A stretch of DNA of 5,810 nt from IMG/VR virus record IMGVR_UViG_2671180846_000032; one strand, given 5' to 3'. The translations under genes and the position numbers were made by a program. The notes under the pieces are model-generated. The model worked only from the letters and a program-made list of their open reading frames with translations. It had not been told where the DNA came from and did no database searches. This DNA is from a virus (taxonomy: Duplodnaviria > Heunggongvirae > Uroviricota > Caudoviricetes). Each line of letters starts with the position of its first letter. The stretch's first letter is position 1. Below are positions 1 to 5,810 of the stretch, piece after piece.

Positions 1-26
1 GTAACCGGCTCATTTAAACCGTCTGG
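1..26 (+). repeat. Left terminal inverted repeat (IRL) of the IS66-family element
   Basis: GTAACCGGCTCATTTAAACCGTCTGG aligns with the reverse complement of the right end, GTAAGCGACTCGTCAGAACCGTATTG (about 18 of 26 positions identical by hand alignment). The GTAA terminus is typical of the family. Confidence 0.6.
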
Positions 27-53
27 TCTGTTTCCTCCGGCTCTACAAAAATA

Positions 54-731
54 ATGTCCATCATTTTTAATGGACACTATCGTATGAAACACCGGACCTG
101 GATCACTGAAGCTTTACGTCTTCACTTTGAAGAACATTTACCCCGGGTTGTGGCCGGGCGTCGCCTGGGTGTACCAAAATCAACAGTTTGTAGTATGTTC
201 GTGCGCTTTCGGAGAGCTGGCCTTTCGTGGCCTTTGCCCGCAGGCATGTCGGAGCAGGAACTTGATGCCTGCCTTTACGGACAATTTTCCACGGTACCAG
301 TCGTACGTCCTGAAAGCACCGTTATATCCGAAGCCCCCGTGGTAAAAAAACGTCCCCGGCGGCCCAACTTCCCTTATGAGTTTAAAATCGCCTTAGTGGA
401 GCAGTCACTGCAGCCCGGAGCCTGTGTGGCGCAGATCGCCCGGGAAAACGGAATCAACGATAACCTGCTCTTCAACTGGCGCCATCAATACCGGAAAGGT
501 GGCCTGCTGCCTTCCGGAAAAAATATGCCGGCACTGCTTCCCGTGACGTTAACGCCGGAGCCGGATAATAAAATCCCGGCCCCCGCACAGGAACCAGAGC
601 AGATAAATACACCGTCCGACAGTCTGTGTTGTGAGCTGGTTCTGCCGGCCGGAACTCTCAGGCTTAAAGGTAAACTGACGCCGGCGTTATTACAGACACT
701 TATCCGCGAAATAAAAGGGAGCAGCCACTGA
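54..731 (+). CDS. tnpA: IS66-family accessory protein TnpA (orf1), here with an N-terminal extension; true start codon uncertain
   Basis: 225-aa ORF. The central part (PNFPYEFKIALVEQSLQPGACVAQIARENGINDNLLFNWRHQYRKG) is a helix-turn-helix segment of the kind found in IS66 orf1 proteins. The first ~64 aa (LPRVVAGRRLGVPKSTVCSMFVRFRRAG) look like a second HTH. Stop TGA 729..731 overlaps the tnpB ATG at 731 (TGATG). No convincing Shine-Dalgarno precedes ATG 54, 84 or 246, so the start could be any of these. Confidence 0.72.
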   Translation: MSIIFNGHYRMKHRTWITEALRLHFEEHLPRVVAGRRLGVPKSTVCSMFVRFRRAGLSWPLPAGMSEQELDACLYGQFSTVPVVRPESTVISEAPVVKKRPRRPNFPYEFKIALVEQSLQPGACVAQIARENGINDNLLFNWRHQYRKGGLLPSGKNMPALLPVTLTPEPDNKIPAPAQEPEQINTPSDSLCCELVLPAGTLRLKGKLTPALLQTLIREIKGSSH

Positions 732-1078
732 TGATATCTCTCCCTGCAGGTTCGCGTATCTGGCTGGTTGCAGGTATCACCGATATGCGAAATGGCTTTA
801 ACGGCCTGGCATCAAAAGTTCAGAACGTCCTGAAGGATGACCCGTTCTCCGGACACCTGTTCATCTTCCGCGGACGCCGGGGTGACCAGATAAAAGTGTT
901 GTGGGCTGACAGTGACGGACTGTGCCTCTTCACCAAACGCCTGGAGCGGGGCCGCTTCGTCTGGCCAGTCACCCGTGACGGCAAGGTGCACCTTACTCCG
1001 GCTCAGTTATCCATGCTTCTTGAAGGTATCAACTGGAAGCACCCGAAACGAACGGAACGCGCTGGAATCCGCATATAA
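731..1078 (+). CDS. tnpB: IS66-family TnpB (IS66 Orf2-like protein)
   Basis: 115-aa ORF MISLPAGSRIWLVAGITDMRNGFNGLASKVQ...FIFRGRRGDQIKVLWADSDGLCLFTKRLE, which I recognise as the conserved IS66 Orf2 family. Start is translationally coupled to tnpA; position between tnpA and tnpC is canonical. Confidence 0.9.
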   Translation: MISLPAGSRIWLVAGITDMRNGFNGLASKVQNVLKDDPFSGHLFIFRGRRGDQIKVLWADSDGLCLFTKRLERGRFVWPVTRDGKVHLTPAQLSMLLEGINWKHPKRTERAGIRI

Positions 1079-1097
1079 CCCGTTGTAAAGTGAGGAT

Positions 1098-2669
1098 ATG
1101 GACACCTCACTTGCTCATGAGAACGCCCGCCTGCGGGCACTGTTGCAGACGCAACAGGACACCATCCGCCAGATGGCTGAATACAACCGCCTGCTCTCAC
1201 AGCGGGTGGCGGCTTATGCTTCCGAAATCAACCGGCTGAAGGCGCTGGTTGCGAAACTGCAACGTATGCAGTTCGGTAAAAGCTCAGAAAAACTTCGTGC
1301 AAAAACCGAACGGCAGATACAGGAAGCACAGGAGCGAATCAGCGCACTTCAGGAAGAAATGGCGGAAACGCTGGGTGAGCAATATGACCCGGTACTGCCA
1401 TCCGCCCTGCGCCAGTCTTCAGCCCGTAAACCGTTACCGGCCTCACTTCCCCGTGAAACCCGGGTTATCCGGCCGGAAGAGGAATGCTGTCCTGCCTGTG
1501 GTGGTGAACTCAGTTCTCTGGGATGTGATGTGTCAGAGCAACTGGAGCTTATCAGCAGCGCCTTTAAGGTTATCGAAACACAACGTCCGAAACAGGCCTG
1601 TTGCCGGTGCGACCATATCGTGCAGGCACCAGTACCTTCAAAACCCATTGCACGCAGTTATGCCGGAGCGGGGCTTCTGGCCCATGTTGTCACCGGGAAA
1701 TATGCAGACCATCTGCCGTTATACCGCCAGTCAGAAATATACCGTCGTCAGGGAGTGGAGCTGAGCCGTGCCACACTGGGGCGCTGGACAGGTGCTGTTG
1801 CTGAACTGCTGGAGCCGCTGTATGACGTCCTGCGCCAGTATGTGCTGATGCCCGGTAAAGTCCATGCTGATGATATCCCCGTCCCGGTCCAGGAGCCGGG
1901 CAGCGGTAAAACCCGGACAGCCCGGCTGTGGGTCTACGTCCGTGATGACCGTAACGCCGGTTCACAGATGCCCCCGGCGGTCTGGTTCGCGTACAGTCCG
2001 GACCGGAAAGGTATCCATCCACAAAATCACCTGGCCGGTTACAGCGGTGTGCTTCAGGCCGATGCTTACGGTGGTTACCGGGCGTTATACGAATCCGGCA
2101 GAATAACGGAAGCCGCGTGTATGGCTCATGCCCGGAGAAAAATCCACGATGTGCATGCAAGAGCGCCCACCTACATCACCACGGAAGCCCTGCAGCGTAT
2201 CGGTGAACTGTATGCCATCGAGGCAGAGGTCCGGGGCTGTTCAGCAGAACAGCGTCTGGCGGCAAGAAAAGCCAGAGCCGCGCCACTGATGCAGTCACTG
2301 TATGACTGGATACAGCAACAGATGAAAACACTGTCGCGTCACTCAGATACGGCAAAAGCGTTCGCATACCTGCTGAAACAGTGGGATGCACTGAACGTGT
2401 ACTGCAGTAATGGCTGGGTGGAAATCGACAACAACATCGCAGAGAACGCCTTACGGGGAGTGGCCGTAGGCCGGAAAAACTGGATGTTCGCGGGTTCCGA
2501 CAGCGGTGGTGAACATGCGGCGGTGTTGTACTCGCTGATCGGCACATGCCGTCTGAACAATGTGGAGCCAGAAAAGTGGCTGCGTTACGTCATTGAACAT
2601 ATCCAGGACTGGCCGGCAAACCGGGTACGCGATCTGTTGCCCTGGAAAGTTGATCTGAGCTCTCAGTAA
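1098..2669 (+). CDS. tnpC: IS66-family DDE transposase TnpC
   Basis: 523-aa ORF. N-terminal heptad-like coiled-coil region ([29 protein letters not shown]...). Cys-rich zinc-finger-like block CPACGGEL...(x27)...CCRCDH. Conserved catalytic-region motifs [18 protein letters not shown] and [13 protein letters not shown] that match the IS66 DDE signature. GAGGA Shine-Dalgarno just upstream of the ATG at 1098. Confidence 0.93.
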
Positions 2670-2672
2670 ATA

Positions 2673-2777
2673 TCAATACGGTTCTGACGAGTCGCTTACT
2701 TTTAACGTACCTTTTTTTATTCCTTTCAGCGCAATTAACTGCTCTTCGGATACCCATTTGCCGGGAGAGACAATCAT
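2673..2777 (-). CDS. Short ORF (34 codons) that starts in the flank and reads across the IS right end; possibly the 5' remnant of a gene disrupted by the IS insertion (speculative)
   Basis: Minus-strand ATG at 2777..2775 gives MIVSPGKWVSEEQLIALKGIKKGTLK from flanking DNA (26 codons), then VSDSSEPY and stop from inside the IRR. Weak ribosome-binding site. No homology recognised. Confidence 0.15.
   Translation of the reverse strand: MIVSPGKWVSEEQLIALKGIKKGTLKVSDSSEPY
2674..2699 (-). repeat. Right terminal inverted repeat (IRR) of the IS66-family element
   Basis: Reverse complement of 2674..2699 is GTAAGCGACTCGTCAGAACCGTATTG, matching the left end. It lies 5 to 30 nt past the tnpC stop codon. 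Confidence 0.6.
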
Positions 2778-2868
2778 GATTACTTCGCTCATCGATTTCT
2801 TTATCTCTTACATCAGACGAGCGCCGGTTGCAGAATACCAGTCACAACCGGCGACAGTTGAACATTAA
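2776..2868 (+). CDS. Hypothetical 30-aa small ORF, antisense to the exonuclease 3' end (speculative)
   Basis: ATG 2776 is preceded by GGGAGAGA with about 6-nt spacing (good Shine-Dalgarno). Encodes MITSLIDFFISYIRRAPVAEYQSQPATVEH and ends TAA 2866..2868. Not in the supplied ORF track, presumably because of length. Confidence 0.15.
   Translation: MITSLIDFFISYIRRAPVAEYQSQPATVEH
2822..2853. other. Perfect 9-bp inverted repeat (CGCCGGTTG / CAACCGGCG) with a 14-nt loop, 11 nt downstream of the exonuclease stop
   Basis: 2822..2830 cgccggttg is the exact reverse complement of 2845..2853 caaccggcg. No U/T tract follows on either strand, so it is not a canonical intrinsic terminator. Confidence 0.4.
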
Positions 2869-3407
2869 GAATCAGCCTGACTCGGGATCAGTTTTTGCCA
2901 GATAACTGAAACGTATTTTGCCTGGTAACGGGCGTCATCAAGTGCATTATGGCGCTCACCTTCGAATGGAATAGCCGTTCTGGCATCGAAGTCTATGGCT
3001 TTCCCCAGCTCAACGATTGTGCGTACATCGCGATCGTTGTAGTAACGCCACGGGCAGGGGATCCCCTGCCGTTCGTATGAACGGCGCAAAATCGTGTTGT
3101 CGAAGTTGGCTCCATTTCCCCAGACCTGAACAAAAAATTCACCGGAGTTTTCGTCGATAAATTCCCGCAATTGTAACAGTGCATCATCTAACGGGATTTC
3201 ATCGGTCATAATGGCAGATTGCGCTTCGCGTGATTGCTTAAGCCACCATTTAATGGTGTCCCGATCAATGACTCCGCCAGCAGTTTCCAGATCGATAGTC
3301 TTACTAAATTCCGGTCCCATATCTCCGGTTTGCGGATCGAAAAATATTGCACCTATTGAGATGATCGGGGCATCAGGATTTTTTCCCATGGTTTCAAGGT
3401 CGATCAT
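2865..3407 (-). CDS. DEDDh-type (DnaQ-like) 3'-5' exonuclease, small stand-alone phage/accessory type; possibly Rv2179c-like 3'-5' exoribonuclease family (family not verified)
   Basis: 180-aa ORF with the three exonuclease motifs in order: Exo I MIDLETMG (D-x-E), Exo II VWGNGANFDNTIL, Exo III HNALDDARYQ (H-x4-D). Stop TAA at 2865..2867. The reading frame stays open upstream of ATG 3407 all the way to the N-run, so the true start could lie inside the gap. ATG 3407 is preferred because homologous exonucleases start a few residues before the D-x-E motif. Confidence 0.8.
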   Translation of the reverse strand: MIDLETMGKNPDAPIISIGAIFFDPQTGDMGPEFSKTIDLETAGGVIDRDTIKWWLKQSREAQSAIMTDEIPLDDALLQLREFIDENSGEFFVQVWGNGANFDNTILRRSYERQGIPCPWRYYNDRDVRTIVELGKAIDFDARTAIPFEGERHNALDDARYQAKYVSVIWQKLIPSQADS

Positions 3408-3443
3408 TAGATGGTCACACGTCCTGCTGGTGGATGTGATTTC

Positions 3444-3493
3444 NNNNNNNNNNNNNNNNNNNNNNNNNNNNNNNNNNNNNNNNNNNNNNNNNN
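3444..3493. other. Run of 50 N (assembly gap or masked sequence)
   Basis: Exactly 50 consecutive n characters. Sequence on the two sides belongs to unrelated genes (prohead protease C on the right, unrelated ORF tail and exonuclease on the left). Confidence 0.99.
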
Positions 3494-3844
3494 TCCACCA
3501 TCGGATCGCTGGCAGCCTGTTGCAGACGGGCGATAATGCCGTTGTAACCGGTCATCCCCGAGTACGGCTGCAGCGCCCGCGTCCGGCTGACCAGCGTGCC
3601 GGACACCGGCAGCACGGCGATGCCGTTCATGACCTGATAACTGCGGGCCTGTCGTGGTCCGTCATCATCACCGGATAATGCCAGCGTCGCGAGTGCCTCC
3701 TGGGCAGTCAGGCTGTCGCCGGACACCGCATCCGTCAGGCGGCTGATCCCAAGCTGGCCTGCAAGCGCACAAAAGAAAACCCGCGCATAGGCGGGTTCAA
3801 GCATCAGCGGCTCATTAAAAGCCATGCTGGCAATATGCGGGAGA

Positions 3845-3864
<20 letters not shown>
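3494..3864 (-). CDS. C: Lambda-like prohead protease/scaffold protein C, N-terminal 123 codons only (cut by N-run)
   Basis: Translation from GTG at 3864..3862 gives VTAELRNLPHIASMAFNEPLMLEPAYARVFFCALAGQLGIS...IARLQQAASDPMV, which I recognise as the N-terminus of phage lambda gpC. Strong Shine-Dalgarno (GAGGAGGAG) lies 6 nt upstream of the GTG. The start overlaps the end of B by 20 nt, as in lambda. The ORF-track entry 3415..3999 is an artefact of an upstream in-frame ATG plus translation through the Ns. Confidence 0.85.

Positions 3865-5810
<1,946 letters not shown>

What the first reader, a model, noticed from the sequence alone, without database searches (positions are those of the whole stretch)
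2865..3443. Stand-alone DEDDh 3'-5' exonuclease gene between the IS66 element and the phage head genes
The 180-aa protein has the complete Exo I/II/III motif set of the DnaQ-like superfamily (DLE, NFD, H-x4-D) but no additional domains. This is not a position where a lambda-type genome carries a nuclease (lambda exo is a 5'-3' enzyme in the early-left operon). Small orphan DEDDh nucleases in mobile elements can act in recombination or repair, in RNA or oligonucleotide degradation, or conceivably in degrading host immune signalling nucleotides; which applies here is pure inference. Its frame is open upstream to the gap, and another ORF ends (TGA 3415..3417) only 7 nt before its ATG, suggesting it is the distal gene of an operon whose upstream partner lies in the missing sequence.
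Basis: partly seen in the sequence, partly recalled or inferred. Interest (0 to 1): 0.55.

Follow-up and report, generated by a model that had tools for sequence, protein, structure and literature searches.

The report
Truncated prophage exonuclease gene, not stand-alone
The "small orphan nuclease" is the last 192 codons of a well-known 823-codon prophage exonuclease gene, cut off by an assembly gap and joined artificially to unrelated phage head genes, so it is ordinary.

Summary
The ORF and its DEDDh motifs are real. Pfam Rv2179c-like matches at E=3.8e-67. All five catalytic residues are invariant in 31 homologues. The AlphaFold model matches T4 DexA best, then RNase T.

The ORF is not a stand-alone gene. 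Window 1-3443 is 100% identical to a prophage locus of E. coli O26:H11 11368. There the same frame runs on for 823 codons (WP_000048369.1, PHROG 2082, annotated "exonuclease" or "exodeoxyribonuclease VIII"). That gene sits in the usual nuclease position of a lambdoid phage: cI, ydfABC, dicB, ydfD, exonuclease, xis, int.

The 50-N run is best read as a scaffold gap. None of 5,426 complete E. coli genomes places this gene beside gpC/portal. The window starts at the first base of the IS66 inverted repeat.

The "upstream ORF ending at TGA 3415" comes from reading the gpC frame through the Ns.

The full protein combines a YdfE-type N-terminus, a RecE-like central region and a 3'-5' DEDDh domain where RecE has its 5'-3' nuclease. 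No annealase gene lies beside it. Its biological role is untested. The most likely one is 3'-end trimming of DNA during lytic growth.

Verdict: already known and annotated, low interest.

The parts
2865..3443 (-). 3' fragment (codons 632-823 plus stop) of the 823-aa prophage exonuclease gene. It comprises 12 linker codons and the complete Rv2179c/DexA-like DEDDh 3'-5' exonuclease domain. The internal ATG at 3405-3407 is Met644 of the full protein.
   Evidence: 100% identical to L001 (NC_013361.1), where the ORF is 823 aa. PF16473 E=3.8e-67. The frame is open up to the gap. AF2 pLDDT 88.9, best PDB match T4 DexA 8KEL. There is no usable Shine-Dalgarno sequence before the ATG; the only AGGA lies 14 nt upstream.
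3393..3401 (-). Exo I motif D-L-E (D3 and E5 of the 180-aa numbering; D646 and E648 of the full protein).
   Evidence: Codons checked. Invariant in 31 homologues. Aligned with D7/E9 of T4-type DexA.
3099..3101 (-). Exo II aspartate (D103, in the N-F-D motif).
2934..2951 (-). Exo III motif H-x4-D (H153 and D158).
3444..3493 (.). Run of 50 N. Most likely a scaffold gap joining two non-adjacent contigs. In the reference locus about 1.9 kb of the exonuclease gene follows here, not gpC.
2700..2792 (-). 5' fragment (31 codons) of the excisionase gene xisR, split by the IS66 element. 2700-2707 is the 8-bp target duplication TTTTAACG.
   Evidence: Annotation. Removing the IS and one duplication copy restores an 83-aa xis ORF.
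1..2699 (+). Complete IS66-family element (ISCro1-like): tnpA 54-731, tnpB 731-1078, transposase 1098-2669. Window base 1 is the first base of the left inverted repeat.
3494..5810 (-). Unrelated scaffold partner: lambda-type head-gene block. It holds the gpC/S49 protease 5' fragment (3494-3864, GTG start), portal (3845-5446), gpW (5443-5649) and the 3' end of terminase large subunit (5646-5810).
   Evidence: Best identity to any complete genome is 99.5%.

Best explanation
The feature is the 3' end of a known lambdoid-prophage early-left-operon gene. RefSeq calls it 'exonuclease' or '3'-5' exonuclease', phage records call it 'exodeoxyribonuclease VIII', and it is PHROG 2082. Its N-terminal 256 aa are the K-12 Qin pseudogene ydfE.

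The window is a short draft-assembly scaffold. The left contig holds an IS66 element, a split xis gene and the last 579 bases of the exonuclease gene. It ends inside this multi-copy prophage gene. It is joined by 50 Ns to a contig from the head region of a lambda-like prophage.

The full protein (823 aa) has four parts:
- a YdfE-type N-terminal region;
- a central region homologous to RecE residues 278-592, including a CxxC-x7-CxxC motif;
- an acidic linker;
- the C-terminal DEDDh domain seen in the window.

Mechanism (inferred): the domain is a two-metal-ion 3'-to-5' exonuclease. By its closest characterised relative, T4 DexA, it most likely removes nucleotides from DNA 3' ends. It would be made from the pL transcript after prophage induction or infection and tethered by the RecE-like part. 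Because it has the opposite polarity to RecE/lambda Exo and no annealase gene lies next to it, it is not a Red/RecET-type recombinase pair. I consider DNA-end processing or degradation during lytic growth the most likely role (about 50%).

Shown: gene identity, truncation, genomic position, fold and catalytic residues.
Inferred: substrate, timing and biological role.
For: Identity and truncation:
- Window 1-3443 equals NC_013361.1 at 100% over 3,443 bases. The ORF there is 2,472 nt/823 aa, with the same protein WP_000048369.1 in another strain carrying the same IS66-in-xis junction.
- The 823-aa protein matches PHROG 2082 end to end.
- K-12 ydfE equals aa 1-256 at 99.6%.

Position:
- The order is cI/cro, ydfA/B, dicB, ydfD, exonuclease, xis, int in O26 and in the isolated phage PhiR42_1.
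- Rac has recE-recT in the same place.
- A Salmonella stand-alone homologue also sits directly upstream of xis-int.

Gap is artificial:
- No complete genome joins the three pieces. The best coverage is 86%, which is IS66 plus head genes only.
- The head block is followed by an intact 439-aa gpC everywhere examined.
- In strain 2014C-3057 the left (H4) and right (H57) parts map about 317 kb apart.
- The window begins exactly at the IS end.
- The gene has 6-7 places in each of the listed O26-type genomes, and public protein sets hold thousands of 'partial' copies.

Fold and chemistry: PF16473 E=3.8e-67. Five invariant DEDDh residues. AF2 pLDDT 88.9. Foldseek gives DexA at 5e-11, then RNase T, REXO2 and Orn.

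RecE relation: aa 262-627 against RecE 278-592, 40% identity, E=3e-62, with the alignment stopping before RecE's nuclease domain. Nine of ten long homologues carry PF06630 (Exonuc_VIII) plus PF16473.
Against: - The source assembly itself could not be found. The junction scan of genome contigs gave 0 hits. That the Ns are a scaffold gap is therefore inferred from the absence of the join elsewhere, not observed directly.
- Exactly this 180-aa ORF is called as a gene in 612 blocks of assemblies. In a few long contigs the upstream part really is lost: a nonsense codon E632*, a deletion ending 48 nt upstream of the ATG, or IS/intron insertions. The 36 bases the window retains upstream of the ATG do not by themselves exclude such a remnant.
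- No experiment on the 823-aa protein was found. DNA versus RNA substrate and biological role therefore rest on homology: 26% identity to a T4-type DexA (phage RB27) in the alignment.
Confidence: 0.9

Rival explanations
1. In the source strain the gene really is a stand-alone 180-aa remnant, because the upstream part was lost by deletion, nonsense mutation or insertion. It would be expressed from the internal ATG.
For: The exact 180-aa ORF is called on long contigs where the upstream part is gone or interrupted: L020/L026/L027 (deletion breakpoint 48 nt upstream of the ATG), L025 (E632* nonsense) and L021 (internal deletion). True stand-alone homologues of 183-191 aa starting 'MNHLMIDLETMG' exist in Salmonella, Klebsiella and Enterobacter.
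Against: The window's 3,443-base left contig, including the IS66-in-xis junction, is 100% identical to loci where the ORF continues for 823 aa, or for more than 2.2 kb when IS600-split. The remnant loci examined show no IS66 element beside the ORF: their gene tables list an integrase, and in L021-L025 an uninterrupted 78-83-aa xis-type gene, directly downstream. There is no Shine-Dalgarno sequence at a usable distance from the ATG.
Confidence: 0.05
2. The 50 Ns mask real contiguous sequence. A genuine rearrangement would then have fused a truncated gpC to the exonuclease 3' end, making gpC' stop at TGA 3415 and the nuclease ORF start 7 nt later.
For: With exactly 50 bases, the gpC frame does run into the TGA at 3415-3417.
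Against: None of 5,426 complete genomes has this join. Head genes and the early-left nuclease are in opposite orientations in a lambda-type genome (established knowledge), so a simple deletion cannot place them on one strand. The best match of the right part is only 99.5%, which may reflect a collapsed-repeat contig (the cause is my inference). Both scaffold ends sit at repeat boundaries.
Confidence: 0.02
3. Functional rival: the DEDDh domain is an inter-phage defence nuclease of the EcD/HREX type. It would degrade 5hmC-modified DNA of T-even phages rather than serving the prophage's own DNA metabolism.
For: T4 DexA is the closest solved structure. Kang et al. 2025 (PMC12153337) showed that an E. 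coli DexA homologue, EcD, degrades T4 DNA and protects cells. Their homologue list contains RefSeq accessions numerically adjacent to WP_000048369.1. That is a weak hint only.
Against: By alignment, the DexA residues needed for 5hmC recognition are not kept: W152 becomes Tyr and D169 becomes Ala. The EcD hallmark D90-to-Ala is also absent, since Asp is retained. EcD starts MIDTET and ends TIPETYD and was not among 265 retrieved relatives. The gene lies in the repressed pL operon, not in a typical lysogen-expressed moron position. PADLOC gives only a generic Cas-associated DEDDh hit at E=1.8e-5.
Confidence: 0.1
4. Functional rival: the domain acts on RNA or small nucleotides. It could be an exoribonuclease like Rv2179c, an ISG20-like TONDO acting on RNA 3' ends, an oligonucleotide-degrading enzyme like Orn, or a degrader of immune signalling nucleotides.
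For: The Pfam family is named for the exoribonuclease Rv2179c. The structure also matches RNase T, REXO2 and Orn. Prophage-borne DEDDh exonucleases with auxiliary domains that defend against RNA phages were reported in a 2026 preprint (PMC13344964).
Against: DexA, a DNase, is the best sequence and structure match. Rv2179c itself was not recovered in the PDB sequence search at E<=1. The TONDO authors picked ISG20-clade sequences and state they are distinct from other defence DEDDh domains. Fusion to a RecE-like region points to DNA. Nothing links the protein to cyclic-nucleotide systems.
Confidence: 0.1

Closest known systems
E. coli prophage 'exonuclease' WP_000048369.1 (823 aa; PHROG 2082; annotated 'exodeoxyribonuclease VIII' in phage PhiR42_1, PV340562.1)
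   Same: The window's 579 bases are 100% identical to its 3' end, with the same downstream neighbour, xis split by IS66.
   Different: Nothing differs in the part present. The window simply lacks codons 1-631.
K-12 Qin cryptic-prophage pseudogene ydfE (b1577)
   Same: It is the same gene family in the same operon (dicB-ydfD-ydfE). ydfE equals aa 1-256 at 99.6% identity. Pfam now has YdfE_N (PF27430) and YdfE_C (PF27432).
   Different: K-12 keeps only the N-terminal piece, cut by IS2. The window keeps only the C-terminal piece, cut by an assembly gap.
RecE / exonuclease VIII of the Rac prophage
   Same: It occupies the same position in the early-left operon next to xis-int. The central regions are homologous (aa 262-627 against RecE 278-592, E=3e-62), including a near-identical block with a CxxC-x7-CxxC motif. 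Nine of ten other long relatives of the window's domain that were scanned also carry Pfam Exonuc_VIII PF06630.
   Different: RecE ends in a 5'-3' nuclease domain (PD-(D/E)XK fold from my own knowledge; the polarity is also in the K-12 annotation) and is followed by recT. This protein ends in a DEDDh 3'-5' domain and has no annealase neighbour.
Phage T4 exonuclease A (DexA; PDB 8KEL/8KEN) and its E. coli homologue EcD (Kang et al. 2025, PMC12153337)
   Same: It is the closest solved structure (phmmer E=1.2e-7; Foldseek E=5e-11, TM 0.75). All five catalytic residues align.
   Different: Identity is only 26% in that alignment (to the DexA of T4-type phage RB27). DexA and EcD are stand-alone proteins. 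The 5hmC-recognition residues W152 and D169 are Tyr and Ala here. DexA's extra loops are absent.
Rv2179c (Mycobacterium tuberculosis), founder of Pfam PF16473, and RNase T/Orn/REXO2
   Same: DEDDh fold and motifs. The PF16473 model is matched over 174 of its 177 positions (model 4-177). RNase T, REXO2 and Orn rank just below DexA in the fold search.
   Different: Those are cellular RNA or oligonucleotide exonucleases. This domain is phage-borne, fused to a RecE-like protein, and closer to the DNase DexA.

Membership tests
DnaQ-like DEDDh 3'-5' exonuclease superfamily | Exo I D-x-E, Exo II D and Exo III H-x4-D catalytic residues | tested here: met
   D3, E5, D103, H153 and D158 are present. They are invariant in 31 homologues and align with the DexA catalytic residues.
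DnaQ-like DEDDh 3'-5' exonuclease superfamily | RNase H-like alpha/beta fold | tested here: met
   AF2 model pLDDT 88.9, pTM 0.86. 135 PDB matches at E<=0.001; the 50 listed are DexA, RNase T, REXO2, Orn and a DnaQ domain.
DnaQ-like DEDDh 3'-5' exonuclease superfamily | Metal-dependent 3'-5' exonuclease activity | not testable with these tools
   This needs a biochemical assay.
Pfam PF16473 (Rv2179c-like) | HMM score above the gathering threshold over the whole model | tested here: met
   225.8 bits against a cut-off of 27, model positions 4-177 of 177.
   The frame is open to the gap. Identical DNA continues for 631 more codons in the reference. There is no Shine-Dalgarno sequence within 5-10 nt of the ATG.
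RecE / exonuclease VIII | C-terminal 5'-3' dsDNA exonuclease domain | tested here: not met
   The BLASTP alignment to RecE ends at RecE residue 592, and the C-terminus is PF16473 instead.
RecE / exonuclease VIII | Adjacent annealase gene (recT) | tested here: not met
   The neighbours are ydfD and xis. No recT, bet or erf gene is present in the early-left region.
RecE / exonuclease VIII | Homologous N-terminal or central region, and position in the early-left operon next to xis-int | tested here: met
   E=3e-62 over 366 residues. The gene order matches Rac.
HREX / EcD-type 5hmC-specific defence exonuclease (Kang et al. 2025) | Conserved Trp (DexA W152) and acidic residue (D169) for 5hmC recognition | tested here: not met
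   By MAFFT alignment to RB27 DexA these positions are Tyr and Ala. The alignment is at 26% identity, so it is moderately reliable.
HREX / EcD-type 5hmC-specific defence exonuclease (Kang et al. 2025) | Loss of the tetramer-forming Asp (DexA D90, Ala in EcD) | tested here: not met
   The aligned residue is Asp (D75 of the 180-aa numbering).
HREX / EcD-type 5hmC-specific defence exonuclease (Kang et al. 2025) | Selective degradation of modified phage DNA, and protection against T4 | not testable with these tools
   This needs nuclease and plaque assays.
TONDO (ISG20-like anti-RNA-phage exonucleases, 2026 preprint PMC13344964) | Membership of the ISG20-related DEDDh clade, and defence against MS2/Q-beta | not tested
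   No TONDO sequences were available for comparison. This is a lead only.

The most novel reading that the evidence does not exclude
Enterobacterial prophages carry a family of large early-left proteins that share RecE-type N-terminal or central regions but end in nucleases of opposite polarity. This one couples that scaffold to a DexA-like 3'-5' DEDDh domain and has no annealase partner. It could therefore be an unstudied, recombinase-independent nuclease used in phage-phage or phage-host conflict. Examples would be destroying competitor or modified DNA, or salvaging host DNA. In that case it would not be a RecE analogue.
Probability: 0.15. Interest if true: 0.45.

Novelty: already known. Interest (0 to 1): 0.12.

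Why it matters
As written, the finding would have suggested a new orphan nuclease in an unexpected place in a phage genome. In fact it shows how a gap in a draft assembly can make the tail of a long, multi-copy prophage gene look like a small independent gene with a strange neighbourhood. The gene is annotated in thousands of E. coli genomes and in isolated phages. The one point of residual interest lies outside the window. The full protein has a RecE-like body with a 3'-5' DEDDh nuclease in place of RecE's 5'-3' nuclease. It is very common in pathogenic E. coli prophages, and I could find no experimental study of it.

Tried and rejected
- I scanned genome contigs for the IS66/xis junction (47 bases) to find the source contig and got 0 hits. 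The source assembly stays unidentified.
- Literature searches for Rv2179c with prophage, for ydfE/exoD/PF16473 and for ydfE with dicB found no functional study of the 823-aa protein.
- I tried to recover the EcD sequence (HAK9828821.1). Only its primers are in the supplement (MIDTET... and ...TIPETYD). No retrieved homologue matches them, so its closeness to this domain is unknown.
- K-12 exoD (DLP12) is not related: tblastn gave no hit.
- PADLOC gave only a generic Cas-associated DEDDh model at E=1.8e-5. NCBIfam gave only a sub-threshold KapD hit. Rfam found nothing in the window.
- I considered internal translation initiation at ATG 3405-3407 and rejected it, because there is no ribosome-binding site at a usable distance.
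- I did not predict the full-length structure. Most of the protein lies outside the window, the alignment would be shallow, and a fold search on the whole model would mostly return the DEDDh domain again.

Full report
**What is in the window.** The six-frame ORF list and comparison with annotated genomes give this layout.
- 1-2699 (+): a complete IS66-family element (ISCro1-like) with three ORFs.
- 2700-2792 (-): the first 31 codons of an excisionase gene (xisR).
- 2865-3443 (-): the ORF of the finding.
- 3444-3493: 50 Ns.
- 3494-5810 (-): the start of a lambda-type gpC/S49 protease, then portal, gpW and the end of the large terminase subunit.

**Checking the observation.** The 180-aa ORF (ATG 3405-3407, TAA 2865-2867) exists. 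Its frame stays open for a further 12 codons (EITSTSRTCDHL) up to the N run.

It matches Pfam PF16473 (Rv2179c-like 3'-5' exoribonuclease domain) at E=3.8e-67 over model positions 4-177 of 177. It also matches RNase_T weakly.

All five are invariant in an alignment of 31 homologues reaching down to 57% identity. They align with the catalytic residues of a T4-type DexA.

An AlphaFold2 model of the 192-residue fragment is confident (mean pLDDT 88.9, pTM 0.86). Its best PDB matches are T4 DexA (8KEL/8KEN, E=5e-11, TM 0.75), then E. coli RNase T, human REXO2 and oligoribonucleases. A sequence search of the PDB also returns DexA first (E=1.2e-7). So the domain call is correct and far beyond chance.

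**It is not a stand-alone gene.** Window 1-3443 is 100% identical, without gaps, to a prophage locus of E. coli O26:H11 strain 11368 (NC_013361.1). There the same reading frame continues upstream for a total of 823 codons. The product is WP_000048369.1, annotated 'exonuclease' or '3'-5' exonuclease'.

The window therefore holds codons 632-823. No Shine-Dalgarno sequence lies at a usable distance from it; the only AGGA is 14 nt upstream.

The 823-aa protein matches PHROG 2082 ('exonuclease') end to end. Other strains with the identical IS66-in-xis junction carry either the same 823-aa gene or a copy further split by IS600 near its 5' end. In neither does the ORF stop near the window's break.

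**It is in the normal place for a phage nuclease.** In O26 the order is cI-like repressor/cro, ydfA, ydfB, dicB, ydfD, exonuclease, xis (split by IS66), int (split by IS600).

The isolated temperate phage PhiR42_1 has the same order with intact xis and int. There the gene is annotated 'exodeoxyribonuclease VIII'. This is the distal end of the early-left operon, where Rac carries recE-recT and lambda carries exo-bet (established knowledge).

The K-12 Qin pseudogene ydfE, downstream of dicB-ydfD, is the first 256 codons of this same gene at 99.6% identity, cut by IS2. A megablast of the 774 bases around the fragment finds matches in 4,123 of 5,426 complete E. coli genomes. There are 6-7 places in each of the listed O26-type genomes.

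**The N run joins unrelated DNA.** With the whole window as query, the best complete-genome places cover only 86%. That is the IS66 element plus the head genes, at a second locus where another ISCro1 copy has split gpC. No genome contains the exonuclease fragment next to gpC.
- The head block's best matches (99.5%, none exact) continue into an intact 439-aa gpC and the remaining head genes.
- The same is true in all eight long contexts of the exact portal protein.
- In strain 2014C-3057 the left (H4) and right (H57) parts of the window lie about 317 kb apart.
- The window's first base is the first base of the IS66 left inverted repeat. The element ends at 2699 and is followed by the 8-bp target duplication TTTTAACG.
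- The portal protein is mostly found on 2-10-kb contigs. Protein databases hold thousands of 'partial' copies of this exonuclease.

All of this fits a small scaffold built from repeat-bounded contigs of a draft EHEC-type genome. I could not find the source assembly itself, so this step is an inference, though a strong one.

**The 'upstream ORF'.** The TGA at 3415-3417 (minus strand) is real but out of frame within the long gene. The 194-aa ORF 3415-3999 in the ORF list is the gpC frame read through 50 Ns. Fifty is not a multiple of three, and the two sides are not contiguous. In the intact locus no minus-strand ORF of 20 aa or more ends at that TGA. The missing sequence therefore holds the rest of the same gene, not an operon partner.

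**A caveat.** The exact 180-aa ORF is called as a gene in 612 blocks of public assemblies. Most are on contigs under 5 kb. A few long contigs carry genuine remnants:
- a nonsense codon at position 632 (L025);
- a deletion whose breakpoint lies 48 nt upstream of the ATG (L020, L026, L027);
- an internal deletion (L021).

The window keeps only 36 bases upstream of the ATG, so that stretch alone cannot exclude such a remnant. The IS66-in-xis context argues against it, because every complete genome examined with that junction carries the long gene. I give this rival about 5%.

**What the whole protein is.**
- Residues 262-627 align with RecE residues 278-592 (40% identity, E=3e-62). This includes a nearly identical block carrying a CxxC-x7-CxxC motif. 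The alignment stops before RecE's nuclease domain.
- The N-terminal ~260 residues are the YdfE module. Pfam YdfE_N and YdfE_C are named but were absent from the local Pfam copy used.
- In a search of 1.84 billion representative proteins the domain family has 12,155 clusters at E<=0.001. The closest ones (55% identity or more) are almost all 560-901-aa proteins with the domain at the extreme C-terminus. More distant ones are mostly stand-alone proteins of 180-200 aa.
- Nine of ten long relatives combine Pfam Exonuc_VIII (the RecE N-terminal family) with PF16473.
- Stand-alone relatives (57-62% identical, starting MNHLMIDLETMG) occur in Salmonella, Klebsiella and Enterobacter prophages. In Salmonella the gene again lies directly upstream of xis-int.

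So this is a RecE-like body whose C-terminal nuclease is a 3'-5' DEDDh module, where RecE has its 5'-3' nuclease. No annealase gene lies beside it.

**How it most likely works.**
Shown: an intact two-metal DEDDh active site in a DexA-like fold, and a position in the pL-driven early-left operon.
Inferred: the enzyme trims nucleotides from 3' ends. The substrate is most likely DNA, because the DNase DexA is its nearest characterised relative and because it is fused to a RecE-like region. It would act after induction or infection, in DNA-end processing or degradation. It is not part of a Red/RecET-type exonuclease-annealase pair.

Two functional rivals remain, each at roughly 10%.
- An EcD/HREX-type defence nuclease against 5hmC phage DNA (Kang et al. 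2025, PMC12153337). The residues that paper ties to 5hmC recognition (W152, D169) align with Tyr and Ala here. The D90-to-Ala change typical of EcD is absent. PADLOC gives only a generic hit.
- An RNA or oligonucleotide exonuclease, as for Rv2179c, RNase T, Orn or the recently described TONDO proteins (PMC13344964).

**Novelty and verdict.** The gene is annotated in RefSeq, PHROGs and phage records, has a K-12 pseudogene name, and belongs to Pfam families. The apparent oddities (small size, no partner domains, neighbouring head genes, upstream ORF) all arise from the assembly gap. The finding is therefore already known and ordinary, and I score interest at 0.12. The only open point is that the full-length protein appears to be experimentally uncharacterised. 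Most of that protein lies outside this window.

Noticed in passing
window 1-2707: The IS66-family (ISCro1-like) element starts at window base 1. It has imperfect terminal inverted repeats (GTAACCGGCTC... / GTAAGCGACTC...) and the 8-bp target duplication TTTTAACG. It sits inside the excisionase gene. Removing it restores an 83-aa xis ORF. In O26 11368 the adjacent integrase is also split, by IS600, so this prophage probably cannot excise.
   Followed up: yes
window 3494-5810: The head-gene block has no exact match in 5,426 complete genomes. The best is 99.5%, and it is 98.5% to the IS66-split gpC locus of O26 11368. Its portal protein occurs in 6,658 assembly blocks, mostly on 2-10-kb contigs. 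This may reflect a collapsed multi-copy prophage repeat.
   Followed up: partly
L001 6196-8667 (NC_013361.1) compared with L003 4787-7387 (K-12 recE): The 823-aa exonuclease and RecE share a nearly identical central block (DKLLAASRGEFV.GISDPNDPKWVKGIQTRD ... C-x2-C-x7-C-x2-C ... GAVMGDATYQETFDEE) flanked by much weaker similarity. Their C-terminal nuclease domains are unrelated and of opposite polarity. This looks like mosaic exchange at a conserved linker.
   Followed up: partly
L007 4703-6570 (Salmonella contig DBBDHP010000057.1): The stand-alone 189-aa homologue starts at the last base of a 432-aa gene with a PF04447 (dATP/dGTP pyrophosphohydrolase-type) domain, which suggests translational coupling. 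The pair lies just upstream of xis-int, and a NEL/LRR effector gene lies beyond int.
   Followed up: no
L020-L027 (contigs carrying the exact 180-aa ORF): Natural decay forms of the gene occur at a Qin-like site next to genes with rspB/rspA-type domains. They include an E632* nonsense that splits it into 631-aa and 180-aa ORFs. Another is a shared deletion breakpoint 48 nt upstream of the internal ATG in three assemblies, with group II intron or IS3-family genes annotated upstream in two of them. Short fusion variants (P0042, P0073) join the first ~60-90 residues to a DEDDh domain lacking Exo I.
   Followed up: partly
Kang et al. 2025 (PMC12153337), Table S3: The published list of 'bacterial DexA homologues' includes RefSeq accessions WP_000048320, WP_000048327, WP_000048333, WP_000048357, WP_000048363 and WP_000048384. 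These are numerically adjacent to WP_000048369.1, which suggests that sibling variants of this large prophage exonuclease were counted there as bacterial DexA homologues. The stored file was cut and the sequences could not be checked.
   Followed up: partly
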